Origin: a virus
Taxonomy: Duplodnaviria; Caudoviricetes
Direction: 5' to 3' (one strand)
IMG/VR virus record: IMGVR_UViG_3300027608_000010
DNA length: 64,000 bases
The translations under genes and the position numbers were made by a program. Shown one piece after another: positions 38,126-60,826 of this stretch (position 1 is the first letter of the stretch; every line of letters begins with the position of its first letter). Below the pieces are notes generated by a model. It searched no databases. It saw only the letters and a program-made list of their open reading frames with translations, and had not been told where the DNA came from.

Positions 38126-39593
38126 TTTATCAGATAGTCATAGCCCTGAATGGGCATTGTTCTTACCCGCAGTCAGTAGCTTTTATATCTCTGGCTTAGG
38201 CAAGCAACGTGAGGGTGAGCCTTACTTTGACTTAGCACGAATCCCTGCGGCCTTTAATGGTGATGTAGAGAAACTCAACTTCTTAAACAGTAAAGAAGGT
38301 CTTTATTATTACAAATGGGGATTGTATTCTGCTGGTCATGCTAACTTAGATACGAACAAAGTTGATCATAATGAAAGCATCATTCGCAAACGTGAAGAAG
38401 ATACATTCATATTAGGTGACTCTGGTGGTTTTCAGATCCTTAAAGGTCAATGGCCAGCAGACTGGAAGGATCCTAATTGTCCTAAAGCAATGATTAAGCG
38501 CAAAGCAGTATTGAATTGGATGGACACATACATGGACTATGGTATGTGTTTAGATATTCCTAGTCAATCTGAAACTACATTTGGTCTTCAAGATAAGAAT
38601 GGCAACAGTTTGCATGGCATTAGGAATGTTGATGATGCTATTGTTGCTACTCATATCAACAATGAATACTTTATTAAGAATCGTAATGGTAGTTGTAAGT
38701 TTCTAAACGTATTGCAAGGTCGTACTCATACTGATAGCGATACATGGTATGATGAGATGAAGAAATACTGCGACCCAAACATCTACCCAGATAATCATTT
38801 CAATGGTTGGGCATTTGGTGGACAAACAAAGATAGATGTCCATCTAATGTTGCGTAGAATGGTCGATATCATATATGATGGATTGTTACAAGAAGGTAAA
38901 CATGACTTGATTCACTGTTTGGGTGTATCAATACTTGAGTACGCTGTATTGTTTACTGATATTCAGAAAGCTATTCGTAAGAATCACAACCCCAAACTAC
39001 AAATCACATTTGATTGTGCAAGCCCATTCTTCTCTGCGGCTAAAGGTCTGGCTTATTTCAATAATAACATTGAACATGAAAAGAAATGGTCATACAGTAT
39101 GGAGAAAACTGCTGAGAACAAAAACTATGCCACAGATACCCGTAAGTTTAGTGACGGAGTTTTGGCTGATGGCATCCATAAAGTCTTTACAGATAGTCCA
39201 ATTACTGATAAACTACTAATGAAGGACTTGTGTTATCGAGGTCAAGGCTTCATTGGTCAACATGGTAAAGAAACTAAAACAAGTTGGGATACTTTGAGTT
39301 ATACGTTGTTACAAAGTCATAATGTCTATCAACATATGTTGGCAGTTCAGGAAGCAAATCGCAAATATGAAACAGGTGTTATTCCTGCAATGCTTAAGCA
39401 TAACTTGTCCGGACTAACATTCAAACAAGTTATTGATGATGTATTTGCACAAAATACTAGACAAGCTAGCCATGATGTTATTGATGCACATAGTAATCTA
39501 TGGAAACAAATGCAAAGTGGTAGTCAAGGTATGAGTGGTAAGAAAACTGTTAATTCATTAACTAAATTTAACGAATTGTTTGAGTTTGTATAA
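38112..39593 (+). CDS. dpdA: TGT-fold transglycosylase, probable DpdA-type DNA 7-deazaguanine insertion enzyme
   Basis: TGT motifs GDSGGFQ, MCLDIP, NVLQG, GWAFGG, IHCLGV, TFDCASP; embedded with folE/queD/queE. Confidence 0.75.
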   Translation: MDQVNLSDSHSPEWALFLPAVSSFYISGLGKQREGEPYFDLARIPAAFNGDVEKLNFLNSKEGLYYYKWGLYSAGHANLDTNKVDHNESIIRKREEDTFILGDSGGFQILKGQWPADWKDPNCPKAMIKRKAVLNWMDTYMDYGMCLDIPSQSETTFGLQDKNGNSLHGIRNVDDAIVATHINNEYFIKNRNGSCKFLNVLQGRTHTDSDTWYDEMKKYCDPNIYPDNHFNGWAFGGQTKIDVHLMLRRMVDIIYDGLLQEGKHDLIHCLGVSILEYAVLFTDIQKAIRKNHNPKLQITFDCASPFFSAAKGLAYFNNNIEHEKKWSYSMEKTAENKNYATDTRKFSDGVLADGIHKVFTDSPITDKLLMKDLCYRGQGFIGQHGKETKTSWDTLSYTLLQSHNVYQHMLAVQEANRKYETGVIPAMLKHNLSGLTFKQVIDDVFAQNTRQASHDVIDAHSNLWKQMQSGSQGMSGKKTVNSLTKFNELFEFV

Positions 39594-39824: not shown

Positions 39825-40274
39825 ATGGAACAAAGAGAACAAGCATTAATAGAACAACGTGAACGTATTCGTACAATAGCAAACAGATTTATCTGGGTTA
39901 CTTTTCAACGTGAAGGTATTCATTGCTATCCACAAGCAGGTCATGATCCTGCATTAGCAACAGGTGACGAATATGATGTTAGCTTTTTAAGTACACCACA
40001 TCGTCATATATTTCATTTCCGAGTTGGCATTCAAGTAACGCACAACGATCGGGACATAGAGTTCATTCAATTCAAACGTTGGCTTGAAAGTTTATTTCAA
40101 GGCATACTTGAGTTGAATAACAAAAGCTGTGAAATGATTAGTGATGACCTCTATGAAGTCATTGCAACTCGCTACCCAGACCGTGACATTCAAATCGAAG
40201 TCTCAGAAGATGGAGAGAACGGATGTTCAATTAACTATAACACAAAACGACCACATTTGACAGTCGTAATTTAA
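39825..40274 (+). CDS. QueD-like T-fold protein, DpdL (CDG decarboxylase) candidate
   Basis: EGIHCYP, LSTPHRHIF (LxxxHRHxF), RDIEFI, SCEM..D, VSEDGENG. Confidence 0.65.
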   Translation: MEQREQALIEQRERIRTIANRFIWVTFQREGIHCYPQAGHDPALATGDEYDVSFLSTPHRHIFHFRVGIQVTHNDRDIEFIQFKRWLESLFQGILELNNKSCEMISDDLYEVIATRYPDRDIQIEVSEDGENGCSINYNTKRPHLTVVI

Positions 40275-40285
40275 GAGGTAATATA

Positions 40286-40498
40286 ATGGCAAAACCAACT
40301 TTTCAACCTAATCCTAAAGTTCATCAAATCTTTGAAGACTTGGAAAAGTATTTAGAATTCTGTGTTGACTTTGGCTATAAGTATGATGAGGCAAGTTTGT
40401 ACGATATGCGTAGCTATGTGTACCGTCAACATCAAAAACAACTGACAAACAAGTGGCCTAAAGACAGTTGGGCAGAAGACCGTAGGCATAATGCGTAG
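40286..40498 (+). CDS. hypothetical protein
   Basis: 70 aa with GAGG RBS. Confidence 0.7.
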   Translation: MAKPTFQPNPKVHQIFEDLEKYLEFCVDFGYKYDEASLYDMRSYVYRQHQKQLTNKWPKDSWAEDRRHNA

Positions 40499-41666
40499 AC
40501 TATATTATATGGGCCTTGAGCCCTATAAAGCACGATATACTCTGCAATTACAAGAGTGGAATCGTGCTGTCTTTGATAAACGGGGCATTGATTATGTTAT
40601 TGTCCCGGGCGAAACACTAAGTAACGACCAAGCGATTGTTACTGGTCAAGTATTAGATGCACATGGTCGCACATACTTTGGTATGTCGCAACTAATGAAT
40701 TTGATTCGTATGATGAAAGCCGGTGAACTAAACAATGAAGATGTTATCTACTTTGAAGATATGTTTCAGCCTGGCATTGAATCTTTACCCTATATTCTTA
40801 AACAAATCGACACAGTTAACAGGCCTCGGATTTATGTTCGCTGTCTTGCTCAGTCCATTGATCCTGATGATTTTGTTCATGTATGGGGTATGGCTAAGTT
40901 TATGGGTCACTATGAAAAGATGGTTGACTCATTCGTAGATGGTATGCTTGCAACGAATGAAGAAATGGTAATGAACATGAAGATTGCAGGCTGGGAAGCC
41001 CCAATTTATAATATATCAGGTCTTGCATTTGGTAAAGAAGAAGTACGCGGGCGTGTTGGCGAACTAAAGCCATTTAATGAGCGTACACCTCGTATTGTAT
41101 TTACCGCACGTTGGGATCAAGAAAAGCAACCTGATTTCTTCATGGATGTTATTGAAGAATTCAATAATAGATACGGTAATAGAAGTGCAGAGTTTGCGGT
41201 ATTAAGTGGTGCACCACTACGTAGTAACAATAGTAGTTACATGGAACGCACACATCAAATGCGTAGAGATGGTAAACTCAAAGTATATGAAGATTTAGAA
41301 AAAAATGACTACTATAGTCTCCTTAATGACTCAAGAGTTTTGTTCAACTGCGCCCTCCAAGATTGGGTCAGCAATACGGTCAGTGAAGCAGATACTCTTG
41401 GTTGCAATGTACTTTATCCTGCTTATCGCAGTTTCCCCGAAACCTTTGCAAATGATTATACAAGGCTGTATACTCCATGGAGTGTAGAAGATGCCGCAAT
41501 CAAGTTATTCAATATGCTACATACACCGCATAAAAAGCAAGGTATGATTAGTGATTGGAATGATGGTACTATTGACCGTATCTGTGATATCATGGAGGGC
41601 AATGGTGAGCAATGGTTGCGTATGAGTACTGACTATCGCAAGCACACAAGAGAAAGTAAATATTAA
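40491..41666 (+). CDS. GT-B glycosyltransferase, T4 alpha-glucosyltransferase-like
   Basis: IVFTARWDQEKQPDFF, ALQDWVSNTVSEA..LGC..LYPAYRSFPE donor-binding pattern. Confidence 0.75.
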   Translation: MRRLYYMGLEPYKARYTLQLQEWNRAVFDKRGIDYVIVPGETLSNDQAIVTGQVLDAHGRTYFGMSQLMNLIRMMKAGELNNEDVIYFEDMFQPGIESLPYILKQIDTVNRPRIYVRCLAQSIDPDDFVHVWGMAKFMGHYEKMVDSFVDGMLATNEEMVMNMKIAGWEAPIYNISGLAFGKEEVRGRVGELKPFNERTPRIVFTARWDQEKQPDFFMDVIEEFNNRYGNRSAEFAVLSGAPLRSNNSSYMERTHQMRRDGKLKVYEDLEKNDYYSLLNDSRVLFNCALQDWVSNTVSEADTLGCNVLYPAYRSFPETFANDYTRLYTPWSVEDAAIKLFNMLHTPHKKQGMISDWNDGTIDRICDIMEGNGEQWLRMSTDYRKHTRESKY

Positions 41667-41786
41667 GATGATTATTGAAATATTAATTGCATTAGGGTAT
41701 ACAACAATATCATTTGTTATTGTTATGTTGATATATGCCGCAATCAGTAAATTATCAAAATCAAAAAGCCAACACAAGGAGTAAAC

Positions 41787-42395
41787 ATGGCAACTTGGAA
41801 ATTATCAACATACTATAAGAAAAGTGCAATTGAACGACAAATTTGGGTTAAGGATGATAAGGTAATCATCCGTGAAGAAGGTTATCGTTGGGGAACATTC
41901 TATGTTCAATCCGATGAGCGTCCTCTTACTGATGCAGAATTGATTAATGAACATGGATATGAACTTGGTTGTCTTGACAATGATGAGTGTTGGGAACTAG
42001 ATAGTTTAGATGATGGATGTTGGGCTGATTCAACAGCAGGTAGAAATTGTACCGAAGAAGATTTAGAAGCATTTGAAGAAGCCTGGGAAGAAAATTACAA
42101 TGAGGGTGTAGAAGAATTGGGTTGGAGTAATGATGATACTGAGTTTGAATTTCAAGGTCCATTAGTATTGACTAATGAAGATACCGGTGAAGAATTCAAT
42201 GGTGATGAAATCACAAAACCAGAAGTAACAGAATCAGTTACACTCAAAACACTTAATCCAACAGCGGCATGGCCTTTTGGTGACGAACCAATTGATTATG
42301 TTGAAGTTGACCCAACAACATGGCCCTCTCCAAATAGTAATTTTGTAGAAACTGCTAAATGGCCCTTCGAAACAAAAACTAAAGAGGAAAAATAA
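41787..42395 (+). CDS. acidic hypothetical protein with C-terminal W-P-(F/S) repeats
   Basis: 202 aa, AGGAG RBS. Confidence 0.75.
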   Translation: MATWKLSTYYKKSAIERQIWVKDDKVIIREEGYRWGTFYVQSDERPLTDAELINEHGYELGCLDNDECWELDSLDDGCWADSTAGRNCTEEDLEAFEEAWEENYNEGVEELGWSNDDTEFEFQGPLVLTNEDTGEEFNGDEITKPEVTESVTLKTLNPTAAWPFGDEPIDYVEVDPTTWPSPNSNFVETAKWPFETKTKEEK

Positions 42396-42574
42396 TGGCT
42401 AAGAAAAAAGTAAAAATAGAACTATACGCAGAAGCACCATATATGCAGGGCTATGCATCAGGATTGGCAAATGAAGAATTTTTTAATCCATATGCTGATT
42501 TAGAAAATGCAGAAGCAGACGCTGAGGACTACGAGCGTGGGTATGAAAACGCCACTGAAACTGTAGCAGAATAA
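42395..42574 (+). CDS. ribosome modulation factor (RMF)-like small protein (missing from ORF track)
   Basis: YMQGYASG......NPY.........YERGYENA resembles RMF (RGYxAG...CPY...W.GGWR); TAATG coupled. Confidence 0.5.
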   Translation: MAKKKVKIELYAEAPYMQGYASGLANEEFFNPYADLENAEADAEDYERGYENATETVAE

Positions 42575-42594
42575 TTTAACATAAAGGAAATAAA

Positions 42595-42783
42595 ATGAAT
42601 GCACATAACGATATTAAAACACACTTTGATGACTACTTGATGGAGAACGAAAAGTTTGACAAAGGTAATGCATCAGCAGGCACACGTGCCCGCAAAGCAT
42701 TAGCAGAAATGGCTAAAGCAGTTAAAGCACGCCGCAGCGAAATTACTGCCGAGAAAACTGCAAGAAAAGAAGCTAAGGCTTAA
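42595..42783 (+). CDS. Hc1-like histone H1-type nucleoid protein
   Basis: ENEKFDKGNASAGTRARKALAEMAK..KARRSEI. Confidence 0.65.
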   Translation: MNAHNDIKTHFDDYLMENEKFDKGNASAGTRARKALAEMAKAVKARRSEITAEKTARKEAKA

Positions 42784-42858
42784 TGCTGTGATAAATACTT
42801 GTGAGACACAAAGGTCGCACAACGTCAAAACAAAACACTCACAACGGAGGGTTATCAA

Positions 42859-43536
42859 ATGAGTTATAATAAGACAAAAACTGATCCTGAATTAGGATTA
42901 CAAGTACACGAACATCTAGTTAAAATGGGTGTTGAAACGCCAACCACTTATACAGGTCATATGTCCCGTGTAGGCAAGATTGAATTGATTGAAAGTCATT
43001 TCAAAGGTATCATGGAAACATTAGGTTTAGACCTAAGTGATGATAGCTTAATGGACACACCCAAGCGTGTTGCCAAGATGTATGTCAATGAAATCTTTTG
43101 GGGACTTGATTATGAAGCATTCCCTAAATGTACTACTGTTGACAATAAAATGAAATACAATGAAATGGTATGTGAACGTAACGTTAACGTGCAAAGCAAT
43201 TGTGAACATCACTTTGTTGTTATTGATGGGCTTGCTACTGTTGCATATGTTCCCAAAGACAGAGTACTTGGCTTAAGTAAAATCAATCGTATTGTAGAAT
43301 ATTTTTCTAAGCGACCACAAATACAAGAACGATTAACTGAACAAATCTTTCACACACTACAATACATTTTGAACACAGAAGATGTTGCAGTTATGATTGA
43401 CGCAAAACACTATTGTGTTGCGGCCAGGGGAGTTGAGGATACTGGTAGTAGTACAGTAACCACACGCTTAGGTGGTGGGTTTAAATCTGACCCGGCGGCA
43501 CGTGCAGAGTTCTATCAAATTGCGAGACAGAAATGA
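42859..43536 (+). CDS. folE: GTP cyclohydrolase I
   Basis: DTPKRVAKMY, SNCEHH, LGLSKINR, RPQIQERLT, HYCVAARGV. Confidence 0.96.
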   Translation: MSYNKTKTDPELGLQVHEHLVKMGVETPTTYTGHMSRVGKIELIESHFKGIMETLGLDLSDDSLMDTPKRVAKMYVNEIFWGLDYEAFPKCTTVDNKMKYNEMVCERNVNVQSNCEHHFVVIDGLATVAYVPKDRVLGLSKINRIVEYFSKRPQIQERLTEQIFHTLQYILNTEDVAVMIDAKHYCVAARGVEDTGSSTVTTRLGGGFKSDPAARAEFYQIARQK

Positions 43537-43730
43537 ATGAAAAGATTAAAGCATTAGAACAACGATGCTGGAGCCATCGTGTTAACGGAGTATTAGTAGA
43601 TGGTCATTTACATTTTGATGCGGCAAAGTTTGCTGAGTTAATTGTGCTTAAGTGTGCCGAGATTGCTGACACTGCGGAACCATTCCTTTCTTCAGATTTG
43701 ATTAAACAACATTTTGGAGTTAAAGAATGA
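43533..43730 (+). CDS. FAELIV...HFGV(K/E)E small-protein family member
   Basis: paralogous to 62157 and 62426 ORFs. Confidence 0.75.
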   Translation: MNEKIKALEQRCWSHRVNGVLVDGHLHFDAAKFAELIVLKCAEIADTAEPFLSSDLIKQHFGVKE

Positions 43731-44038
43731 ACTTTATAACATGGATTTTTAGACGAGTTAAAAACAGCCAATCAGATTGGGTACGGGGCTATCGCCGTTT
43801 AATACTAGAGGAAACTTTCCTGAGCATAATGTTTACACTTATTTGTGGAATCTTATTGTATATTGTACCTGTGGGATTTCTGTTGATACCTTACATTGAC
43901 CGTACAGACACAGCCGTAACGATCATATGGGGTCTTGTAGCATCAGTTGTCATATTCTATGTGTATCATTGGCTCATGGCCCTGCACGAAGTTTATGAAC
44001 GAGAAAAACTAAAAACTTGGGAGGCACTAAAGCGATGA
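43727..44038 (+). CDS. 2-TM membrane protein
   Basis: two hydrophobic segments. Confidence 0.7.
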   Translation: MNFITWIFRRVKNSQSDWVRGYRRLILEETFLSIMFTLICGILLYIVPVGFLLIPYIDRTDTAVTIIWGLVASVVIFYVYHWLMALHEVYEREKLKTWEALKR

Positions 44039-44235
44039 CAATAGAAGATTTAGAATTTATTTTTCAAAATCAAATTGAAGAAGGCACAGAGAAGCTATAC
44101 TTCATGCTGACTGACGGGGATCGTCATCCCCTAATACAACGACATCCTGCTGATGATTTAGCGGGTTTATTACCTATGCTAGATAGTTTTCATTACGCTG
44201 GCTCAGGTGCTGGCATGCCAAGATTTACAAAATGA
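44035..44235 (+). CDS. hypothetical protein
   Basis: ATGA-coupled small ORF. Confidence 0.6.
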   Translation: MTIEDLEFIFQNQIEEGTEKLYFMLTDGDRHPLIQRHPADDLAGLLPMLDSFHYAGSGAGMPRFTK

Positions 44236-44498
44236 ATCGTTCACCTTTCAGAAACCAAGAAGAAGCACTTGCCTTTCTTAAAAAGATAGGCACTAAAAAA
44301 CGCAGGGTTATTGAAGGTGTTGAACGTGAACACATGTTATTGATTTTTGCATTGATTGGTCCAACTGAATCAAGTAACAATCAACGAACATTTACTAATG
44401 TCTATCGTCACATTGGTAAAGAATATGAAGTTACATATGGATTCAGTGATTTGGGTGAACCCGATCCAATAGTAGAAGAATTGACGGAGTTAGAATGA
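44232..44498 (+). CDS. hypothetical protein
   Basis: 88 aa, ATGA coupled. Confidence 0.7.
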   Translation: MNRSPFRNQEEALAFLKKIGTKKRRVIEGVEREHMLLIFALIGPTESSNNQRTFTNVYRHIGKEYEVTYGFSDLGEPDPIVEELTELE

Positions 44499-44959
44499 TA
44501 TTCAATAAGATTAAAGAACTAAAAGAACGTGGATTGATTATTGGTATTACCTTTAGTCAATTTGACTTATTACACGCCGGTCATATTGCAATGCTAAGTG
44601 AAGCAAAGAATCATTGTGATTATTTGATTGCTGGCTTGCAAAACAATGCACAGTGGGATAGACCAGAAAAGAATGAACCAATTCAAAGTATTGTAGAACG
44701 ACAAATCAGTTTAAGTGCGGTACGCACAGTAGATGAAATTGTTATCTATAATACAGAGAAGGATTTAGCAGACATTCTACTAACACTACCTATTGATGTG
44801 CGTATTCTGGGTATTGAATATGCAGACAAAGATTTCAGTGGTAAGGAAATCTGTGAAAGAAGAAATATTAAGATTATCTATAACGGGCGTGACCATAGTT
44901 TTAGTAGCAGTAGTTTGCGAAAAAGAATTTTGGAAGCAGAGCAGAAAAAAAGTAAATAA
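44495..44959 (+). CDS. TagD-like (glycerol-3-phosphate) cytidylyltransferase
   Basis: FSQFDLLHAGH, ERQ..LSAVRTVDE, RDHSFSSSSLR. Confidence 0.88.
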   Translation: MIFNKIKELKERGLIIGITFSQFDLLHAGHIAMLSEAKNHCDYLIAGLQNNAQWDRPEKNEPIQSIVERQISLSAVRTVDEIVIYNTEKDLADILLTLPIDVRILGIEYADKDFSGKEICERRNIKIIYNGRDHSFSSSSLRKRILEAEQKKSK

Positions 44960-45034
44960 AGATAACCGGCCTTATGGGCTCATCCCGGTATACAAATTCT
45001 GCGTCCTATGCTATAATTAACATAGGAGAAAATC

Positions 45035-45574
45035 ATGGCAAACTTAAACGAAAACGAATCTCAAACACATCGTTGGAATTCAGCAAGACAATATAAATTC
45101 ACAAGTACTAAAGAATATCACGATGCATTTCCGTGTGCATATCGTCAATGGCGGGCAGATAGTCATTGCAATATGATTCATGGATATAGTTTCAGTATGC
45201 GATTCTATTTCGGTACTGATAGTTTAGATGTTCGTAACTGGGCGGCTGACTATGGTGGACTAAAAGAATTGAAAAAGATTCTTGAGGATCAATTTGACCA
45301 CACATTGTTAGTAGCACAAGATGACCCGGAACTTGATACATTCAAAATGCTACAAGAAAAGAAATTGGCTAAGTTAACCATTCTACCAAGAATTGGTTGT
45401 GAGAGTTTAGCCGATATGCTTTACAAATATGTCAATGGAGTGTATATTCCAGATATGTGGGGTAACGGTGAAGCAGAACGTTTATGGTGCTATCGGGTTG
45501 AAGTACGTGAGACACAAGCTAACATGGCATTCCGTGAAGGTCATCGTGAATGGAATGAAGATTTATTCGCATAA
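45035..45574 (+). CDS. queD: 6-carboxy-5,6,7,8-tetrahydropterin synthase
   Basis: CAYRQWRADSHCNMIHGY, DYGGLK, FDHTLL, GCESLA, VRET. Confidence 0.88.
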   Translation: MANLNENESQTHRWNSARQYKFTSTKEYHDAFPCAYRQWRADSHCNMIHGYSFSMRFYFGTDSLDVRNWAADYGGLKELKKILEDQFDHTLLVAQDDPELDTFKMLQEKKLAKLTILPRIGCESLADMLYKYVNGVYIPDMWGNGEAERLWCYRVEVRETQANMAFREGHREWNEDLFA

Positions 45575-45582
45575 GGTTAAAA

Positions 45583-45801
45583 ATGTGGGCACGTGAACAA
45601 AGTTATGTTTATCTCAAGCAGTACATTCAGTGCCGCAACAATACTCCCTGGCCTATGGCAGTGCCGCAAGCGCATGACCGTGCTAGATGGACACTACAAC
45701 ATCTAGGCGGTCTAGCTAGCAGTTGGGACATACGCCGTAGTGATTGTACATATTATTATCCACAGGTAAAAAATGAAAAGAATGTGGAGACTTTGGGCTA
45801 A
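45583..45801 (+). CDS. hypothetical protein
   Basis: 72 aa. Confidence 0.55.
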   Translation: MWAREQSYVYLKQYIQCRNNTPWPMAVPQAHDRARWTLQHLGGLASSWDIRRSDCTYYYPQVKNEKNVETLG

Positions 45802-45931
45802 AAGTTTAGGAGAGAAAGCAGGTAATACGGATAGTGAAGCTAACCGTATTGCTTGTATACGTACCTGCATTGTGTTAATATATGTTATCACAAATTTTTT
45901 TATTATTGCAGGCATAATAAGACATTGGTAA
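45773..45931 (+). CDS. small membrane protein (52 aa, missing from ORF track)
   Basis: MWRLWAKSLGEKAG..D.EANRIACIRT..VLIYVITNFFIIAGIIRHW. Confidence 0.7.
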   Translation: MKRMWRLWAKSLGEKAGNTDSEANRIACIRTCIVLIYVITNFFIIAGIIRHW

Positions 45932-45938
45932 ATATAAA

Positions 45939-46781
45939 ATGAGCAAACTTAAAATATCAGAACTGTTTTACAGTATACAAGGTGAAGGTCGTTACATGGG
46001 TGTCCCGAGCGTGTTCTTACGCACGTTTGGGTGTAATTTTAAATGTGATGGCTTTGGAATGACTAAAGGAGAAAAAAGTGTTGAACGTTTTAAGGTGGAC
46101 GGAGAAAAGTTTAAATCTTATAAATCACTACCACTTGTATCTACTGGATGCGATAGCTATGCGAGTTGGGATCCGCGCTTCAAACATCTCAGTCCTGTTC
46201 TCGACACCAATACTATTGTTGATACTATTACCAATTTACTTCCTCATGGTCGTTGGAAAGATGAGCATTTGGTTATCACGGGTGGTGAACCACTACTAGG
46301 CTGGCAACGTGCTTATATAGACTTGTTGTCACATGACAATATGCGTGGCTTACAAGAAATAACATTTGAAACTAATGGTACACAATTGTTGGAACCAGAA
46401 CTAGTTACTTTCTTAAATGAATGGAAGAAACATCGTTTCTTACATTGTCTAACATTTAGTGTTAGTCCTAAACTAAGCATCAGTGGTGAGAATTGGGAAG
46501 ATGCAATCTGTGCTGATATTGTTAAACAATATTATAATACTGGTTTTACGTATTTAAAGTTTGTTGTGGCTTCTAAAGAAGATGCAGAAGAAGCAGAGCA
46601 AGCAGTAAACGAATATCGTAAACGAGGCTTTAAAGGTCCTGTATATCTTATGCCATGTGGTGGTGTTGAAAGTGTTTATAGCATGAACAACAGAACTGTT
46701 GCTGAACTTGCAATACAAAAAGGCTGGCGTTATAGTGATAGACTACAAGTGCCACTCTTTAAAAACGAATGGGGAACTTAA
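45939..46781 (+). CDS. queE: 7-carboxy-7-deazaguanine synthase (radical SAM)
   Basis: SELFYSIQGEG, FLRTFGCNFKC...GCDS, ITGGEPLL, FETNGT, SVSPKL, RLQV. Confidence 0.92.
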   Translation: MSKLKISELFYSIQGEGRYMGVPSVFLRTFGCNFKCDGFGMTKGEKSVERFKVDGEKFKSYKSLPLVSTGCDSYASWDPRFKHLSPVLDTNTIVDTITNLLPHGRWKDEHLVITGGEPLLGWQRAYIDLLSHDNMRGLQEITFETNGTQLLEPELVTFLNEWKKHRFLHCLTFSVSPKLSISGENWEDAICADIVKQYYNTGFTYLKFVVASKEDAEEAEQAVNEYRKRGFKGPVYLMPCGGVESVYSMNNRTVAELAIQKGWRYSDRLQVPLFKNEWGT

Positions 46782-46984
46782 TGGAAACTAAAAAACGCAC
46801 ATTAGTAAGGATGCTTACCTATCGTTTAACTGCGTGGCTATTTACGATCTTTTGGACATGGTTATTCACCGGCGACATTGCCAGTGCTACCGGATTTGCC
46901 ACCGCATTACATATTCTTCTCAGTATAGACTATTATATTCACGAACGTATTTGGCTTAAAATTAAATGGGGTAGAACAGAGTAA
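46781..46984 (+). CDS. DUF2061-like membrane protein
   Basis: METKKRTLVRMLTYR...YYIHERIWLKIKWG. Confidence 0.7.
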   Translation: METKKRTLVRMLTYRLTAWLFTIFWTWLFTGDIASATGFATALHILLSIDYYIHERIWLKIKWGRTE

Positions 46985-47253
46985 TGTTCGGTAGTAATTA
47001 CAATGACTATAGAATGAAGTTAGGATATAATCCTAAATCATCAACTGAAGCTGATTGGGTATTTCACAAAACAGCAATATGGACAAAAGAGTTTGCATGG
47101 TTGCCACATCGTTGTATGCTTACTAAAAAAATTATTTGGTTGCAATTTGCCTATCAAGGCATTGCTAGGTATTATGGGCAGAGTGTTCATGTGGTATATG
47201 AATATCACTGGCATCGTTATGACGAACACATTATTTGGGAACTACAAAAATGA
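46984..47253 (+). CDS. hypothetical protein
   Basis: 89 aa; FAWLPHRC..TKKIIWL. Confidence 0.65.
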   Translation: MFGSNYNDYRMKLGYNPKSSTEADWVFHKTAIWTKEFAWLPHRCMLTKKIIWLQFAYQGIARYYGQSVHVVYEYHWHRYDEHIIWELQK

Positions 47254-47438
47254 TTGAAATGCGCTGGTTAATACAAGCTACGTGGGACGGTCCCGAACAA
47301 GTATTGCAATATAGACAAAAAGCTGATATAATTGATTATAGCAGAAAAGATAGTAATGGTCATTTTGTTAAGACCACAGAAATGACAGATTGGGTTACAG
47401 TACCCACAGTAGATGAGGTATGGAATGCGGACATATAA
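47250..47438 (+). CDS. hypothetical protein
   Basis: ATGA coupled, 62 aa. Confidence 0.65.
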   Translation: MIEMRWLIQATWDGPEQVLQYRQKADIIDYSRKDSNGHFVKTTEMTDWVTVPTVDEVWNADI

Positions 47439-48771
47439 TAAACGAATTGCTTTTATGATTAGTGACCAGCACTTTATACCCCATGGGGGTATTGGTTCTT
47501 TTTGTAAAAGTTTTACTGAGATGTGCGACCGTATCAACTGGAAGGTTGATATTATATTAGATAAAGCACCTACTGGTACATTTGATAAAGTGATTGACAA
47601 TGCAAATATTGTATACCCAGAAGAAGCATTACGATATAGCGACCATACTGCTACCTTTGCATTTAGTGACACAATAAATTTTGAAAAGATTATAAATTTC
47701 CGTAAAGCATTATTGAAAGCATTCGAAACAAATATCTATGACATGGTTGTGTGCAACACACAAGAAGCAATGACTGCGGCATATGCAATGACAATCAATG
47801 CATATATTCCGGTTGTATTTTATACACATTTACATAGTATGATTTTCCGCGAGAGTCAGGGTAGTGATGTATTTCTAAGTAGCTATCACAATTTTTTTAA
47901 CAAGCATATGGAGTTCACTGATATTGTTATCGGTACGCAAAGTCAAAAGAATATTGATGAATTAAATAAGTATGGTGCAACTAACTGTGTTAAATTACCT
48001 ATGCCAATGAGTGAGCGTGGGTTGTTAGAACCTAATACAAATACTAATCGTAAAGGTGTACTATTCATTGGACGATGGGAAGAAGGTAAAAACCCTGAAT
48101 CATATATCAAAGCAATGAAGGAAGCCAAACTTCCATGTAAAGTTATGACTAACTCAAATGGCGAAAAGAAATTTATCAAAGCATTTGAAGAAGCCGGTAT
48201 AACTGACTACGAAATCAAAGCTGGAATTACTGGTCAAGAAAAAGTAGACTTCATTAAAGGTTGTAAAGTATTTTTCATGCCTAGCTTGCGTGAAAATTAT
48301 CCATTTGCATTTTTAGAATGTCTAGGTCATATGCCATGTGTAGTACTAGACAAACAAGATTGGTCTGATAACTTCAACGAAAATCTTTTTTATAAGTGTA
48401 AGCAAGATGAAGTACCCGAAGTACTGAATAGACTATACAATGAACCAGAATCTGTAGTTGGGTTAAAATATGTAAATCAACTTGATGAATTAGTAGCGGA
48501 GAGTTGGATTAAGTTCTTAGATAACTTTGTAACCAAAAAGAGCAATACAAATGCCGCAAAGATTAACTCATACGAAACAATTAAGTACAGTGACTACATC
48601 AAAGAATTGGATCGTAGTCATTTAGCAAGGGAAGATTTTGAAAGTGTGTTGGGTAATAGACATAAATTTTTACATGTAGTTTATACAGACAAGAACACAT
48701 ATCTTTCAAAAGTTCCAACATTCAAACCAACAGAGGAGGAAATAGGTTTTGACCTATTTAGTTTTACATGA
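47425..48771 (+). CDS. GT4-like (GT-B) glycosyltransferase
   Basis: HGGIGSF, LFIGRWEEGKNP, FFMPSLRENYPFAFLEC. Confidence 0.8.
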   Translation: MRTYNKRIAFMISDQHFIPHGGIGSFCKSFTEMCDRINWKVDIILDKAPTGTFDKVIDNANIVYPEEALRYSDHTATFAFSDTINFEKIINFRKALLKAFETNIYDMVVCNTQEAMTAAYAMTINAYIPVVFYTHLHSMIFRESQGSDVFLSSYHNFFNKHMEFTDIVIGTQSQKNIDELNKYGATNCVKLPMPMSERGLLEPNTNTNRKGVLFIGRWEEGKNPESYIKAMKEAKLPCKVMTNSNGEKKFIKAFEEAGITDYEIKAGITGQEKVDFIKGCKVFFMPSLRENYPFAFLECLGHMPCVVLDKQDWSDNFNENLFYKCKQDEVPEVLNRLYNEPESVVGLKYVNQLDELVAESWIKFLDNFVTKKSNTNAAKINSYETIKYSDYIKELDRSHLAREDFESVLGNRHKFLHVVYTDKNTYLSKVPTFKPTEEEIGFDLFSFT

Positions 48772-49601
48772 AAAAAGTTTTAATCACGGGTAATTCAGGC
48801 TACATTGGTAGTCATCTAAGTAAGATGTTAAATGACGAATATGAAGTCTATGGATTAGATATAGTAGGTCCTCAATTCAAAATTAAGAAACATTATAATC
48901 TTGATATCAAAAGTCAACTAAAGGTCAAGGAAGAGTTTGATGCTATCATTCATTTGGCCGCATTAGTTAATGTAGGTGAGAGTGAACTAGAACCCACAGA
49001 TTATTACATGACTAATCTGTTTGGTACACTAAACATATTACAAAATATTAAGACAAAGAACTTTATCTTTGCGAGTACAGGTGCAGCCGAAAAGTGTGAA
49101 AGTGCTTATGGTGTAAGTAAACGGGCAACAGAAGATTGTATACGAGAATTTTGTCAAGTAAACAAAGTTCCACACACAACTTTTAGATTCTACAACGTTA
49201 TAGGTAGTGATGGATTCAAACCCACTAACCCTGATGGTCTGATGTATAATCTAATGCAAGCCCCGATAAAGGGAGACTTCACTATATTCGGTAAAGACTA
49301 TAACACATTAGATGGAACTTGCATACGAGACTATGTTCATGTGAATGAGATTTGTCATGCCCTTAAGTTGGCAATAGAAGAACCTAGCAACAGTTTAGAG
49401 AATTTGGGTCATGGTGTCGGACATAGTGTTGGGGAAATGGTTCAAATCTTTGAAATCATAAATAACGTGAAATTCTTCACTTTATACGGTCCTAGGCGTA
49501 AAGGTGACATAGAAGTATCTGTTTTAGCAAATCCTTCAAAATATATGAAAAAACTCTATACAATAGCGGAATTATTGACGGTTGACACTAAATATGCATA
49601 G
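48768..49601 (+). CDS. NAD-dependent epimerase/dehydratase (GalE-like)
   Basis: ITGNSGYIGS, IHLAA, YGVSK (YxxxK), FRFYNV, IRDYVHV, RRKGD. Confidence 0.9.
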   Translation: MKKVLITGNSGYIGSHLSKMLNDEYEVYGLDIVGPQFKIKKHYNLDIKSQLKVKEEFDAIIHLAALVNVGESELEPTDYYMTNLFGTLNILQNIKTKNFIFASTGAAEKCESAYGVSKRATEDCIREFCQVNKVPHTTFRFYNVIGSDGFKPTNPDGLMYNLMQAPIKGDFTIFGKDYNTLDGTCIRDYVHVNEICHALKLAIEEPSNSLENLGHGVGHSVGEMVQIFEIINNVKFFTLYGPRRKGDIEVSVLANPSKYMKKLYTIAELLTVDTKYA

Positions 49602-49610
49602 TGATATACT
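49582..49610 (+). promoter_or_regulatory. sigma70-type promoter of uvsE
   Basis: TTGACA-17-TATACT. Confidence 0.75.
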
Positions 49611-49639
49611 CAAGACTTCACATACTTTACATAATATAT

Positions 49640-50659
49640 ATGACTATTAAACGCATTGGTTTTGCTTGCAAATTTGCCGAGATTAACCACAAGGGTGAAA
49701 TCGTAAGTGTTGAGGGACTAAACACTGGTGGTACTACACTTGCATGGGCACGTCGCCAAACTCGGCCTGTAGCAGAAGATAAGATACTAGAAGTTGCACA
49801 CCGCAATATCACTAATACCCATAATCTAATTAAAAAGGTTAGTACTCTTGATCCAAGTTTGCGTATGCTACGTATAACTAGCGACATGCTTAGTTTCTAT
49901 ACTCATCCTGAATTTCTTGACTTTTGGAAATCAAGTGACAATCAGAAATTTCTCAGTGACATGTTTGCACCCTTAGGTGAGACTGCACGTGCTAACAATG
50001 TTCGTCTTAGTATGCACCCCGATCAGTTTGTTGTTCTAGCAAGTGACAGGGAAGAAGTTGTAACTAACAGTATTCGGGAGTTTGAGTATCATGCAGACAT
50101 GGTTAGATTTATGGGCTATGGCAAAACATTTCAAGATTTCAAAATCAATGTGCATATCAGTGGACGACAAGGTCCTGAAGGTATACGTAAAACCTATACC
50201 AAACTCTCACCGGAAGCACGTAATTGTATTACTATCGAAAACGAAGAAATTAGCTGGGGGCTAGATGACTGCTTAGAGTTGGCAGACTTACTACCCATTG
50301 TATTAGACATTCATCATCATTGGATTAAAACTGGAGAATATATTGAACACGATAGCGACTTGGTTAAAAAGGTTATTGATAGTTGGCGTGACCGTAGGCC
50401 TACTATGCACTATTCCGTATCTCGGGAAGATGTACTTGTTGACCATGACAGACATATCGCACCCGATCATGGTACGCTAATCGCTGCCGGACATAACAAA
50501 CAAAAACTACGTGCCCATAGTATCTACTATTGGAACGAGGCTGTTAACGACTGGGCATTGACATTCAATGACAACTTTGATATCATGTGCGAGTCAAAGG
50601 CAAAGAATTTAGCCAGCTTTAAATTATACGAAAGAGCAAAACAAAATGGGACTATTTGA
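49640..50659 (+). CDS. uvsE: UV damage endonuclease
   Basis: RIGFAC, LRITSD, RLSMHPDQF, INVH, TIENEE, VLDIHHHW, MHYS, RAHS, DIMCESKAK. Confidence 0.9.
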   Translation: MTIKRIGFACKFAEINHKGEIVSVEGLNTGGTTLAWARRQTRPVAEDKILEVAHRNITNTHNLIKKVSTLDPSLRMLRITSDMLSFYTHPEFLDFWKSSDNQKFLSDMFAPLGETARANNVRLSMHPDQFVVLASDREEVVTNSIREFEYHADMVRFMGYGKTFQDFKINVHISGRQGPEGIRKTYTKLSPEARNCITIENEEISWGLDDCLELADLLPIVLDIHHHWIKTGEYIEHDSDLVKKVIDSWRDRRPTMHYSVSREDVLVDHDRHIAPDHGTLIAAGHNKQKLRAHSIYYWNEAVNDWALTFNDNFDIMCESKAKNLASFKLYERAKQNGTI

Positions 50660-53041: not shown

Positions 53042-54049
53042 ATGACAAAACGTTACGCACTCATCGATACGGCAAATACCTTCTTCCGTGCTAGACACGT
53101 TGCTAGTCGCAACTCTACATTAGAAGAAAAAATCGGCATGGCCCTACACTTGACACTTGCTAGTGTTAATCAAGCAGTAAGACGCTATGGAATTGACCAT
53201 GTTGTATTTTGCTTGGAGGGGAAATCGTGGAGGAAGGCAGTATACGGTCCTTACAAAAAAAATCGTGTGGTTGATGCAATGTCAGTCACTGAGGAAGAAA
53301 AAGAAGAATCGGCTATGTTTTGGGATACTTACGAAAAGTTTACCACATACATACGAGAGAAAACTAACGTCAGTGTACTCAGGCACGAACGGGCTGAGGC
53401 TGATGATTTGATTGCCCGTTTTATCCATCTACATCCAAATGACACGCATTATATTATTAGCACTGATTCCGATTATGTTCAGCTTATTACTGATAAAGTG
53501 TTCCAGTACAATGGAGTCGCAAATGAACTCATCACACTCTCCGGATATCTTAAAGATACGGGTAAGCCGATACTAGATAAGAAAACTAAACAGCCTAAAT
53601 TGTTAGAGGATCCACAGTACTTACTTTTTAAAAAATGTATGAGGGGAGACAGTTCCGACAACGTATTCAGTGCGTATCCGGGTGTGCGTGAAAAAGGTTC
53701 TAAGAATAAGGTTGGTTTGATTGAAGCATACGAAGATAGAATGAAGCAAGGTTTTTCGTGGAACAATCTAATGTTGCAACGCTGGCTGGACCACGAAAAT
53801 GTCGAGCATCGGGTTAAAGATGACTATGAACGTAATCGTATGCTGATTGACTTAACTGCACAACCTGACGAGATTAAACAATTGGTTGATGAATCAATTC
53901 GCAATGGTGTTCGTACAACTACAACATCTCAAGTTGGTATACACTTTATGAAATTTTGTAACAAATACGAATTGACTAAGCTCAGTGAACAATCAGAAAC
54001 ATATTCACGGTGGCTTAACAATCCCTATACAGGTGTACTCAATGGATAA
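53042..54049 (+). CDS. rnh: T4 RNase H-like 5'-3' exonuclease / flap endonuclease
   Basis: LIDTAN, SWRKAVYGPYKKNR, AEADDLIA, ISTDSDYVQL, MRGDSSDNV, RNRMLIDL. Confidence 0.92.
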   Translation: MTKRYALIDTANTFFRARHVASRNSTLEEKIGMALHLTLASVNQAVRRYGIDHVVFCLEGKSWRKAVYGPYKKNRVVDAMSVTEEEKEESAMFWDTYEKFTTYIREKTNVSVLRHERAEADDLIARFIHLHPNDTHYIISTDSDYVQLITDKVFQYNGVANELITLSGYLKDTGKPILDKKTKQPKLLEDPQYLLFKKCMRGDSSDNVFSAYPGVREKGSKNKVGLIEAYEDRMKQGFSWNNLMLQRWLDHENVEHRVKDDYERNRMLIDLTAQPDEIKQLVDESIRNGVRTTTTSQVGIHFMKFCNKYELTKLSEQSETYSRWLNNPYTGVLNG

Positions 54050-60580: not shown

Positions 60581-60826
60581 ATGATATTTGATTTTTTTAA
60601 AAAACATGAACATAGTAATGTGCTTAAATTTCCAGAGACTAAGGTGCCGTATGTTGAGCCACCAAAAAAAGAACAAGAGCACTACAGCATTGGTATAACT
60701 GATGATAATCGTATAACTTTAAGAATAGGTTATACTACACTTACTATGAATGAAGAAGGTGTTCTTGATTTAATTGAGGCACTTGAATTATTTGCAAGAC
60801 AGACAAGAAAAAGGGATACTGAATGA
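60581..60826 (+). CDS. hypothetical protein
   Basis: 81 aa. Confidence 0.7.
   Translation: MIFDFFKKHEHSNVLKFPETKVPYVEPPKKEQEHYSIGITDDNRITLRIGYTTLTMNEEGVLDLIEALELFARQTRKRDTE

What the first reader, a model, noticed from the sequence alone, without database searches (positions are those of the whole stretch)
40491..49601. Sugar-transfer genes interleaved with the deazaguanine genes: candidate glycosylated hypermodified base
Seen: an agt-like GT-B two genes after dpdA/dpdL-like, a TagD-like CDP-transferase just before queD, and a GT4 + GalE-like pair after queE. No dCMP/dUMP hydroxymethylase is visible in the window. Known: T4 agt glucosylates hmC in DNA. Inference: the acceptor may be the deazaguanine (for example the carboxyl of CDG), giving a sugar- or CDP-polyol-decorated G not in the known dpd repertoire, perhaps built in two steps.
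Basis: inference. Interest (0 to 1): 0.72.

Follow-up and report, generated by a model that had tools for sequence, protein, structure and literature searches.

The report
Sugar transferase inside phage deazaguanine genes
A giant lake phage carries the known genes for replacing guanine in its DNA with 7-deazaguanine, and a sugar-adding enzyme sits beside them in every phage lineage checked, so its DNA may hold a sugar-bearing purine, which I found in no paper I could search.

Summary
The window carries a TGT-fold DpdA (38028/38109-39593), DpdL, a 70-aa ORF and a GT-B glycosyltransferase ("GTB", 40491-41666). Downstream lie FolE, a small nucleotidyltransferase, QueD, QueE, a second GT4 and a GalE-like SDR.

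GTB is a real GT4-type enzyme (AF2 pLDDT 94.7, R-x4-K and D-x7-E motifs). It is no closer to T4 Agt than to many other GT4 enzymes. It is wedded to the deazaguanine genes:
- All 80 related viral contigs keep DpdL-(p70)-GTB wherever they reach that far.
- Six of six informative contexts of distant homologues (31-42% identity) have que genes nearby.
- Profile searches find GTB in the clusters of six cultured phage groups (PA5oct, Phosso, BCSR5, ACP17, BUDD/X1, BUCT-ZZ01).
- It was not found near DpdL in phiST, whose DNA holds plain dDG.

Complete relatives have only a canonical ThyA, no Tet/JBP and no C5-methylase, so hmC/hmU does not explain the transferases. GT4 co-occurs with GTB in two further lineages. 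The TagD-like gene is widespread in phages and only loosely linked.

The acceptor atom, and whether the substrate is DNA or free base, remain inferred. CDG-carboxyl is unlikely given DpdL. The scan reached the same conclusion earlier on other genomes.

The parts
36929..36957 (+). Perfect sigma-70-type promoter (TTGACA-17-TATAAT) just downstream of the PolB gene. It is the likely early promoter for the downstream genes.
   Evidence: 12 of 12 hexamer matches; no T4-type late motif TATAAATA between 18.8 and 56.2 kb.
38028..39593 (+). DpdA-like guanine transglycosylase (TGT-superfamily TIM barrel). The likely true start is the ATG at 38109.
   Evidence: GDSGGFQ motif. 35% identical to the PA5oct protein. 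D104-S-G-G is invariant in alignment A3. AF2 pLDDT 82.9. The Foldseek top 50 are all TGT, ArcTGT, QTRT1 or DpdA 7ui4. No Pfam or PDB sequence hit.
39825..40274 (+). DpdL, a QueD-like T-fold protein proposed to be a CDG decarboxylase.
   Evidence: LSTPHRHIF fits the LxxxHRHxF signature of Cui et al. 2023. The motif is invariant in A2. tblastn hits ACP17 DpdL at 52% and phiST DpdL at 32%.
40286..40498 (+). 70-aa ORF between DpdL and GTB, overlapping the GTB start by 8 nt. Function unknown.
   Evidence: Conserved in 69 of 83 loci, always between DpdL and GTB. Sequence. Not detected in ACP17, BUDD or BUCT-ZZ01.
40491..41666 (+). GTB: a GT4-type (retaining-type fold) GT-B glycosyltransferase dedicated to deazaguanine clusters.
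   Evidence: AF2 pLDDT 94.7. GT4 enzymes score Z 23-26.6 and Foldseek E about 1e-12. R207, K212 and D291 are invariant and E299 nearly so. Best viral structural matches are the ACP17 homologue and one other (TM 0.75-0.85), well above all other viral GTs. Synteny.
42859..43536 (+). GTP cyclohydrolase I (FolE).
   Evidence: PF01227, 207 bits.
44495..44959 (+). Small HxGH nucleotidyltransferase (HldE-domain-II/TagD-like). Substrate unknown, and only loosely linked to the system.
   Evidence: PF01467, 40.6 bits. TIGR02199 63.5 and TIGR01518 53.3, both far below cut-off. HAGH motif. Homologues in 90 phage records, mostly Streptomyces, Synechococcus and Vibrio phages. Present in 49 of the lake-phage loci but absent from clade 2 and from the clusters of cultured relatives.
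45035..45574 (+). QueD/PTPS-family 6-carboxytetrahydropterin synthase (divergent, with CNMIHGY in place of CxxxHGH).
   Evidence: PF01242, 59.6 bits. Sequence.
45939..46781 (+). QueE, the radical-SAM 7-carboxy-7-deazaguanine synthase.
   Evidence: phrog_2076, 179 bits. Several QueE NCBIfam models hit, all below cut-off.
47413..48771 (+). Second glycosyltransferase (GT4 family), a candidate second sugar step.
   Evidence: PF00534, 31.1 bits against cut-off 26.4. In isolates it is found only in BUCT-ZZ01 (inside the deazaguanine cluster, 44%), Xanthomonas BUDD/X1 (elsewhere in the genome) and four Erwinia phage records. Two divergent alleles occupy this position in lake phages.
48768..49601 (+). 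GalE-like extended SDR (probable NDP-sugar 4-epimerase), coupled to GT4 by a 4-nt overlap.
   Evidence: PF01370, 104.9 bits. TIGR01179 160.9 against cut-off 262.3. GxxGxxG and S...YGVSK motifs.

Best explanation
The locus is a DpdL-type 7-deazaguanine DNA-modification system with a dedicated glycosylation branch.

Proposed pathway:
1. FolE, QueD and QueE make 7-carboxy-7-deazaguanine from GTP (family-level assignment).
2. DpdL converts it to 7-deazaguanine. This function was proposed by Cui et al. 2023 and is not proven.
3. The TGT-fold DpdA exchanges it for guanine in phage DNA (inferred).
4. GTB, a GT4-type GT-B enzyme that uses a nucleotide sugar, then adds a sugar to the deazaguanine moiety. 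I favour action on the base already in DNA, because GTB travels with three unrelated DpdA lineages (inference).
5. In this phage the GT4 and its coupled GalE-like epimerase add or diversify a second sugar (weaker inference).

The genes lie downstream of a consensus sigma-70-type promoter, which suggests early expression, as T4 glucosyltransferase genes are. The expected outcome is a glycosylated 7-deazaguanine replacing G, giving broader protection against restriction and against modification-sensing nucleases. The small nucleotidyltransferase is probably a passenger or supplies an unknown activated donor.
For: Gene identities.

GTB looks catalytically competent. R207, K212 and D291 are invariant, and E299 is conserved in at least 90% of 48 sequences at 30-60% identity.

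Linkage of GTB to the deazaguanine genes:
- In 80 IMG/VR loci the order PolB, clamp-like gene, DpdA, DpdL, p70, GTB is kept wherever the contig reaches, while the downstream genes vary.
- Distant GTB homologues (31-42% identity) on unrelated contigs again lie among QueD, QueE and FolE. Five of six have DpdL within three genes.
- Among cultured phages, GTB lies inside the deazaguanine cluster of BUCT-ZZ01, ACP17 and BUDD (with a match in X1).
- By profile search it also lies there in PA5oct (hhalign 99.6%, E 8e-25), Phosso and BCSR5.
- No GTB was found within 9 kb of DpdL in phiST, whose DNA holds plain dDG. GTB therefore looks like an add-on rather than a requirement for dDG.

Supporting context:
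- PA5oct DNA resists G-containing restriction sites, and its base has not been identified.
- In clade-2 lake phages a true GalE (296 bits against cut-off 262) directly follows GTB. One lineage carries ADP-heptose genes there instead.
- GT4 co-occurs with GTB in BUCT-ZZ01 and BUDD/X1. Only 7 of 50,697 phage records hold it.
- There is no alternative acceptor route. Complete relatives have one canonical ThyA (342 bits against cut-off 327, with PPCH and PFNIASY), no Tet_JBP and no C5-methylase.
- A chemical precedent exists: HuiG glycosylates a 7-deazaguanine-derived free base with UDP-GlcNAc.
- A consensus early-type promoter lies upstream and no late motif occurs in the region.
Against: - No chemistry was measured, so the acceptor atom is unknown. 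7-Deazaguanine has no hydroxyl or carboxyl. That leaves N2, O6 or C-glycosylation, none of which is known for a GT4 enzyme acting on DNA.
- GTB is acidic (pI 5.4). Its conserved N-domain residues are mostly acidic or aromatic rather than basic. Its top structural neighbours (BshA, MshA, SenB, LmbT, BGluT) act on small molecules. All three points fit a free-base or metabolite acceptor better than DNA.
- DpdL's decarboxylase role is itself unproven. DpdL plus DpdA gave no dDG in E. coli.
- GT4, the epimerase and the nucleotidyltransferase are variable in related phages, and the genome carries many other sugar genes. Their link may be positional only.
- Some DpdL phages (RHph_I1_18, Ahp1, Bakedbeans, D479) show no GTB within 8 kb.
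Confidence: 0.5

Rival explanations
1. GTB glycosylates a free small molecule (7-deazaguanine, CDG or a pterin intermediate) and the product never enters DNA. It would be a soluble metabolite, a storage or detoxified form, or a huimycin-like or pterin-glycoside-like compound.
For: The top structural neighbours are small-molecule GT4 enzymes, including BH4 glucosyltransferase 5zer at Z 23.5. HuiG is a precedent on a free base. GTB has an acidic pI and an acidic/aromatic conserved acceptor domain. GTB is tied most tightly to DpdL, which is predicted to act on the free base.
Against: GTB was seen only within clusters that also carry QueE, and in the 63 loci that reach back to PolB it lies next to the replication genes. 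A phage benefit from a soluble glycoside is not evident. The GT4 fold does not discriminate between acceptors, since T4 Agt also scores Z 21.
Confidence: 0.2
2. GTB glycosylates the free base before insertion, and DpdA then inserts the pre-glycosylated deazaguanine into DNA. The end product is the same but the order of steps differs.
For: The same small-molecule-like features as in the first rival. DpdL and GTB are adjacent.
Against: GTB occurs with at least three unrelated DpdA lineages: the window/PA5oct type, the ACP17/BUCT-ZZ01 type and the BUDD TGT. Each would have to accept a bulky glycosylated base.
Confidence: 0.12
3. The sugar genes, above all GT4, the GalE-like SDR and the nucleotidyltransferase, serve cell-surface or virion glycans. 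They sit here only because this is a variable region of T4-like genomes.
For: These three genes are variable among relatives. The nucleotidyltransferase family has homologues in 90 phage records, mostly in groups where I found no DpdL or GTB. The genome has many other sugar and GT genes. JGI names GT4 homologues 'involved in cell wall biosynthesis'.
Against: This does not explain GTB, whose position beside DpdL is conserved from 23% to 90% identity. GT4 recurs in GTB-bearing BUCT-ZZ01 (inside the cluster) and in BUDD/X1. The region has early-type promoters and no late promoters.
Confidence: 0.13
4. The transferases glycosylate hydroxymethyl-pyrimidines (hmC or hmU), as in T-even phages, with a hydroxymethylase encoded elsewhere in the genome.
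For: T4 Agt shares the GT-B fold (Z 21.1). The window covers only part of a genome of about 300 kb or more.
Against: Two complete relatives (352 and 524 kb) and one 86% complete relative each have a single TS-family gene. The copy inspected (G001) passes the curated ThyA model and keeps the dUMP-specific Asn motif, and the other copies score the same against PF00303. No Tet_JBP and no C5-methyltransferase were found. No TS homologue lies in the window.
Confidence: 0.03

Closest known systems
DpdL/DpdA3 2'-deoxy-7-deazaguanine (dDG) system of Cellulophaga phage phiST (Cui, Hutinet et al., NAR 2023, PMC10516641)
   Same: FolE, QueD and QueE without QueC, plus a DpdL with the LxxxHRHxF motif and a divergent TGT-fold DpdA next to the replication genes.
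   Different: No GTB-family member was found within 9 kb of DpdL in phiST, and its DNA holds plain dDG. Here a GT4-type transferase is fixed beside DpdL, with a second GT and an epimerase downstream. The DpdA is of another lineage, the PA5oct type.
T4 alpha- and beta-glucosyltransferases acting on hydroxymethylcytosine DNA
   Same: A phage-encoded GT-B enzyme, probably early-expressed, that sits with DNA-modification genes. The logic is to make an odd base and then add a sugar. T4 Agt aligns at Z 21.1.
   Different: No sequence similarity. Many GT4 enzymes score higher (Z 23-26.6). No hmC pathway is present. The presumed acceptor is a purine analogue without a hydroxymethyl group.
Huimycin/dapiramicin tailoring glycosyltransferase HuiG (Kutzneria albida; PMC7439116, bioRxiv 10.64898/2026.04.15.718813)
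   Same: A glycosyltransferase encoded with preQ0/CDG biosynthesis genes that puts a sugar on a 7-deazaguanine-derived base.
   Different: HuiG is bacterial secondary metabolism acting on a free, O-methylated preQ0 base, with no DNA-insertion enzyme. I did not test homology to GTB because the HuiG sequence was not at hand.
Pseudomonas jumbo phage PA5oct (Wroclawvirus) G-modification locus
   Same: Syntenic with the window: PolB, a clamp-like 248-aa protein (30% identical to the window's 243-aa protein), DpdA of the same lineage (35%), a GTB-family protein (hhalign 99.6%), DpdL (52%), QueE, then RNase H. Its DNA resists G-containing restriction sites.
   Different: The PA5oct cluster has an SDR fragment and a phosphoribosyltransferase but no GT4 homologue. 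Its modified base has not been chemically identified.

Membership tests
TGT/DpdA superfamily (DNA guanine transglycosylase) | TGT-type TIM-barrel fold | tested here: met
   AF2 model with pLDDT 82.9. All 50 best Foldseek PDB hits are TGT, ArcTGT, QTRT1 or DpdA 7ui4, with probability 1.00 and E about 1e-6.
TGT/DpdA superfamily (DNA guanine transglycosylase) | Catalytic Asp in the D-S-G-G-(F/L)-Q motif | tested here: met
   GDSGGFQ in the window protein. D104, S105, G106 and G107 are invariant in 19 homologues down to 23% identity.
TGT/DpdA superfamily (DNA guanine transglycosylase) | Match to Pfam PF01702 or sequence similarity to solved TGTs | tested here: not met
   No Pfam, NCBIfam or PDB sequence hit. 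Membership rests on fold and motif only. It is not DpdA3 by sequence.
TGT/DpdA superfamily (DNA guanine transglycosylase) | Exchanges guanine in DNA for a 7-deazaguanine | not testable with these tools
   Indirect only: PA5oct, with a 35%-identical homologue, has restriction-resistant G sites.
DpdL (proposed CDG decarboxylase, Cui et al. 2023) | LxxxHRHxF in place of QueD's CxxxHGH | tested here: met
   LSTPHRHIF. L55, H59, R60, H61 and F63 are invariant in A2.
DpdL (proposed CDG decarboxylase, Cui et al. 2023) | Homology to phiST and ACP17 DpdL | tested here: met
   tblastn gives 52% to ACP17 (E 2e-35) and 32% to phiST (E 3e-6).
DpdL (proposed CDG decarboxylase, Cui et al. 2023) | Occurs with FolE, QueD, QueE and DpdA but without QueC | tested here: met
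   No QueC-like ORF in the window. Complete relatives G001 and G002 have only sub-threshold PF06508 fragments. One related lineage (G003/G004) has divergent QueC-like PP-loop proteins far from the cluster.
GT4-type GT-B glycosyltransferase (the gene at 40491-41666) | Two-Rossmann GT-B fold closest to GT4 members | tested here: met
   pLDDT 94.7. Sucrose-phosphate synthase Z 26.6, BshA 26.1, PglH 25.1, PimA 24.3. Foldseek E about 1e-12 to BshA, MshA and PimA.
GT4-type GT-B glycosyltransferase (the gene at 40491-41666) | Donor-binding R-x4-K and (E/D)-x7-E motifs in the C-terminal domain | tested here: met
   R207, K212 and D291 are invariant and E299 is conserved in at least 90%. That these are the GT4 signature motifs is my own knowledge.
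GT4-type GT-B glycosyltransferase (the gene at 40491-41666) | Passes the Pfam Glycos_transf_1 gathering score | tested here: not met
   Only Glyco_trans_1_4 at 17.4 bits against cut-off 27. Some homologues do pass PF00534. A profile of the family hits PglH, GlgM and MshA weakly.
T4 Agt (DNA alpha-glucosyltransferase) | Specific structural or sequence kinship with Agt | tested here: inconclusive
   1y6f scores Z 21.1 at rank 25, below about two dozen GT4 enzymes. The cyanophage 'DNA alpha-GT' is rank 8 in BFVD with TM 0.53, against 0.75-0.85 for the ACP17-type homologues. There is no sequence hit.
T4 Agt (DNA alpha-glucosyltransferase) | The genome makes hydroxymethylcytosine as acceptor | tested here: not met
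   Only a canonical ThyA, no Tet_JBP and no C5-methylase in complete relatives. No TS homologue in the window.
TagD (glycerol-3-phosphate cytidylyltransferase) | Reaches the curated equivalog score | tested here: not met
   TIGR01518 scores 53.3 against 165.4. HldE domain II (TIGR02199) scores 63.5 against 181.5. The HxGH motif is present. I file it only as a CTP_transf_like nucleotidyltransferase.
GalE (UDP-glucose 4-epimerase) | Reaches the curated equivalog score and has the SDR catalytic residues | tested here: inconclusive
   TIGR01179 scores 160.9 against 262.3 and the protein is short (277 aa). GxxGxxG, Ser and YxxxK are present. Clade-2 relatives carry a different, bona fide GalE after GTB, at 296 and 289 bits.

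The most novel reading that the evidence does not exclude
Guanine in this phage's DNA, and in PA5oct, ACP17, BUDD/X1, BUCT-ZZ01, BCSR5 and Phosso, is replaced by a 7-deazaguanine that carries one sugar from GTB. In this phage it carries a second, epimerase-supplied sugar from GT4. As far as I could find, this would be the first glycosylated purine in a natural genome. It would have lineage-specific sugars (Gal-type or heptose) that diversify like the T-even hmC glucosylation patterns.
Probability: 0.4. Interest if true: 0.9.

Novelty: new variant of a known kind. Interest (0 to 1): 0.75.

Why it matters
The sugar-bearing DNA bases I know of are pyrimidine derivatives (glucosyl- and arabinosyl-hmC, base J, hmU-derived forms). 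A glycosylated 7-deazaguanine would add a purine to that list. It would also extend the eight known deazaguanine DNA modifications.

The GT family is very common. It has more than 8000 90%-identity clusters in freshwater and other metagenomes, and this phage was seen in 17 studies between 2016 and 2025. Such a base would therefore be abundant in nature.

It could explain two open results. ACP17 DpdL plus DpdA gave no dDG in E. coli, and the modified G of PA5oct is still unidentified.

It also bears on restriction, CRISPR and modification-sensing defences, and on sequencing artefacts in metagenomes. The prediction can be tested directly in phages already in culture.

Tried and rejected
- Megablast of the 10-kb region against phage records gave no match.
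- No whole genome is held for the window, so genome-wide checks used related IMG/VR records.
- Complex prediction of GTB with DpdL returned no verdict (score 0.00). I do not use it as evidence either way.
- The search for related loci with a distant GTB representative in viral contigs found nothing. With P0227 in genome contigs it found no confirmed relative. Whether bacteria carry the pair therefore remains open.
- The C-terminal 280 residues of a 655-aa GTB fusion (P0161) gave no Pfam family and no Atlas lead.
- All sequencing runs that hold the locus are kept as contigs only. Per-read signs of base modification could not be examined, and read laying was not used.
- I considered hmC/hmU as the acceptor and rejected it.
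- I considered a QueC hidden elsewhere. G001 and G002 have only sub-threshold fragments, and a divergent QueC-like PP-loop protein occurs in the G003/G004 lineage only.
- I considered the 243-aa gene upstream of DpdA as part of the system and rejected it. It looks like a sliding clamp or accessory protein conserved beside PolB.
- Phrase searches for a glycosylated deazaguanine or guanine in natural DNA returned nothing relevant.

Full report
**What is in the window**

The window is one co-oriented stretch of a giant T4-like uncultured lake phage with 35-41% GC. Downstream of a family-B DNA polymerase (34203-36920) lie these genes, in order:
- a 243-aa clamp-like gene
- a 133-aa ORF
- a 521-aa ORF with GDSGGFQ (38028-39593, likely start 38109)
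- a 149-aa ORF (39825-40274)
- a 70-aa ORF
- a 391-aa GT-B protein (40491-41666)
- a 202-aa acidic ORF
- FolE, with several small ORFs after it
- a 154-aa HxGH nucleotidyltransferase
- QueD and QueE
- a 452-aa GT4 and a 277-aa GalE-like SDR that overlap by 4 nt
- UvdE

No thymidylate-synthase homologue lies in the window.

**The deazaguanine core**

The 521-aa protein has no Pfam, NCBIfam or PDB sequence hit. Its AF2 model (pLDDT 82.9) nevertheless finds only tRNA-guanine transglycosylases, archaeosine TGT, QTRT1 and the DNA preQ0 insertase DpdA among its 50 best PDB matches. The D-S-G-G motif is invariant across homologues.

It is 35% identical to a PA5oct protein. It is unrelated by BLAST to the DpdA3-type proteins of ACP17 and BUCT-ZZ01, which are 32% identical to each other.

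The 149-aa protein carries LSTPHRHIF, exactly the LxxxHRHxF signature by which Cui et al. defined DpdL. It matches ACP17 DpdL at 52% and phiST DpdL at 32%.

There is no QueC in the window. The complete relatives G001 and G002 lack a real QueC. One related lineage has divergent QueC-like PP-loop proteins elsewhere in its genome. By the logic of Cui et al., the predicted inserted base is 7-deazaguanine rather than CDG.

**The first glycosyltransferase (GTB)**

Pfam barely sees it (E 0.0055). The family is nevertheless very large. There are more than 8000 clusters at 90% identity and 815 representatives at 50% identity.

A 48-sequence alignment shows invariant R207, K212 and D291, with E299 nearly invariant. 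By my own knowledge these correspond to the R-x4-K and E-x7-E donor-site motifs of GT4 enzymes.

The AF2 model is confident (pLDDT 94.7, pTM 0.92). It aligns best with GT4 enzymes:

| Structure | Z |
|---|---|
| Sucrose-phosphate synthase | 26.6 |
| BshA | 26.1 |
| PglH | 25.1 |
| PimA | 24.3 |
| BH4 glucosyltransferase | 23.5 |
| T4 Agt | 21.1 (rank 25) |

'Agt-like' is therefore true only of the fold. Among viral predicted structures the two best matches are one unnamed protein and the ACP17 homologue (TM 0.75-0.85). These stand far above every other viral GT.

**Linkage of GTB to the deazaguanine genes**

This is the main result, and it rests on three layers of evidence.

1. *Related viral contigs.* In 80 IMG/VR loci (74-88% identity) the order PolB, clamp-like gene, DpdA, DpdL, p70, GTB is kept wherever the contig reaches that far, while the genes downstream vary.
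2. *Distant homologues.* Representatives at 31-42% identity on unrelated metagenomic contigs again lie among QueD, QueE and FolE. DpdL sits within three genes in five of six informative cases. One of these contigs also carries a DpdA of the window's type.
3. *Cultured phages.* tblastn finds GTB only in BUCT-ZZ01, ACP17, BUDD and X1. In the three regions I inspected (not X1) it lies inside the deazaguanine cluster. Profile methods add PA5oct (hhalign 99.6%, E 8e-25, lying between DpdA and DpdL), Phosso (directly after DpdL) and BCSR5.

No GTB was found within 9 kb of DpdL in phiST, the phage in which plain dDG was measured. RHph_I1_18, Ahp1, Bakedbeans and D479 also show none within 8 kb. GTB is thus an accessory to DpdL-type systems rather than a requirement for dDG. 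It is associated with three different DpdA lineages.

**The other sugar genes**

*GT4.* It passes the Pfam threshold. Among 50,697 phage records it has homologues in only seven. Three of those are GTB-bearing phages. In BUCT-ZZ01 the homologue is 44% identical and lies between FolE and DpdA3. In BUDD and X1 it lies elsewhere in the genome. In the lake phages its position after QueE holds two divergent alleles, at about 65-75% and about 36-45% identity, while the neighbouring genes stay similar. That pattern would fit diversification of a sugar step.

*GalE-like SDR.* It has the catalytic residues but is short and scores below the GalE cut-off.

*Clade-2 lake phages.* These have no GT4 nearby. 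A different, bona fide GalE directly follows GTB. One lineage carries HldE-I, HldE-II and HldD (ADP-heptose) genes, and another carries a GMP reductase.

*The 'TagD-like' gene.* This HxGH nucleotidyltransferase scores slightly better as HldE domain II. Its family has homologues in 90 phage records, mostly in groups where I found no DpdL or GTB, and it is missing from the clusters of cultured relatives. Its link to the system is weak.

**Is there another acceptor?**

Two complete relatives (352 and 524 kb) and two partial ones each have a single TS-family gene. The copy I inspected (from G001) passes the curated ThyA model and keeps PPCH and PFNIASY, and the other copies score the same against PF00303. 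It is a thymidylate synthase, not a hydroxymethylase. No Tet_JBP and no C5-methyltransferase were found.

**Expression**

A perfect sigma-70-type promoter lies just after polB. Further near-consensus promoters precede QueD and GT4. No T4-type late motif occurs between 18.8 and 56.2 kb. This suggests early or middle expression alongside the replication genes, although the count of promoter-like sites in the region is no higher than in shuffled sequence. It weakly disfavours a virion-glycan role.

**Mechanism and its limits**

Shown here: the gene identities at family or fold level, GTB's intact donor site, and its fixed association with DpdL and the que genes.

Inferred: that the acceptor is the deazaguanine moiety, that the step happens on DNA, and that GT4 adds a second sugar.

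Against a DNA substrate:
- GTB is acidic (pI 5.4).
- Its conserved acceptor-domain residues are mainly acidic or aromatic.
- Its nearest structures act on small molecules.

For a DNA substrate: GTB is indifferent to the DpdA lineage.

N2-glycosylation, for which I recall the dapiramicin-type precedent (my own knowledge; one search shows only that HuiG glycosylates the free base), or another position would be needed.

**What is known, and novelty**

The papers I could search describe eight deazaguanine DNA bases, none with a sugar. PA5oct has a modified G of unknown chemistry. Phrase searches for a glycosylated deazaguanine in DNA gave nothing.

Earlier follow-ups of this scan reached the same conclusion on other genomes. 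My tests here were made independently on this window and agree with them.

I rate this a new variant of a known kind of system. There is about a 40% chance that it encodes a new kind of DNA base.

Noticed in passing
window 36996-37727: The 243-aa protein between PolB and DpdA is 30% identical (E 2e-34) to PA5oct EST35_0314, which is annotated 'structural protein (ESI-MS/MS)'. In Phosso the gene at the equivalent position is annotated as a sliding clamp. It is probably a clamp or replication accessory protein and not part of the modification system.
   Followed up: partly
window 41787-42395: A 202-aa very acidic protein (pI 4.05) lies between GTB and FolE with no family hit. It is present in only some related loci.
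   Followed up: no
L065 10194-11291; L048 14182-16122: In related lake phages, the space after GTB holds a full GMP reductase (556 bits) in one lineage. In another it holds ADP-heptose pathway genes (HldE kinase domain, HldE adenylyltransferase domain, HldD).
   Followed up: partly
L101 7407-8371 (PA5oct); L001 10093-10554 (BUCT-ZZ01): Both clusters carry a small phosphoribosyltransferase (PF00156). PA5oct also has a 172-aa epimerase-like fragment next to DpdL. A PRTase hints at a nucleotide-level branch of the pathway in these phages. None was found in the window.
   Followed up: partly
L097 1489-2157 (G003, also G004): A 222-aa PP-loop protein (ISGGADS) with a QueC-like C-terminal Cys motif (PF06508 22.1 bits, borderline) and a 32%-identical paralogue lie far from the deazaguanine cluster. 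They occur in one related lineage only and are absent from G001 and G002.
   Followed up: partly
L088 1888-3855 (P0161): A 655-aa GTB homologue has an extra C-terminal region of about 280 residues with no recognisable family. A DpdL gene lies upstream.
   Followed up: partly
L107 7212-8363 (Vibrio phage Bakedbeans): The DpdL homology lies at the C-terminus of an annotated 383-aa ORF. This is a possible fusion of DpdL to an unknown N-terminal domain.
   Followed up: no
L092 1-5417: One distant DpdA, DpdL, GTB, QueE set sits beside a resolvase, a RES-domain protein and a Rep-like fragment. That suggests a plasmid-like or other mobile, non-T4 context.
   Followed up: no
window 39825-40274 (alignment A2): Besides the HRH motif, DpdL homologues keep invariant S-C-E (C102) and E-D-x-E-N-G motifs. 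The invariant Cys might take over the role of the Cys lost from the QueD motif, which would bear on what DpdL really catalyses.
   Followed up: no
window 49601-50659, 53042-54049, 60823-62160: A UvdE-type UV endonuclease, a 5'-3' exonuclease/RNase H and an ATP-dependent DNA ligase follow the cluster. The locus is therefore embedded in the replication and repair module.
   Followed up: no
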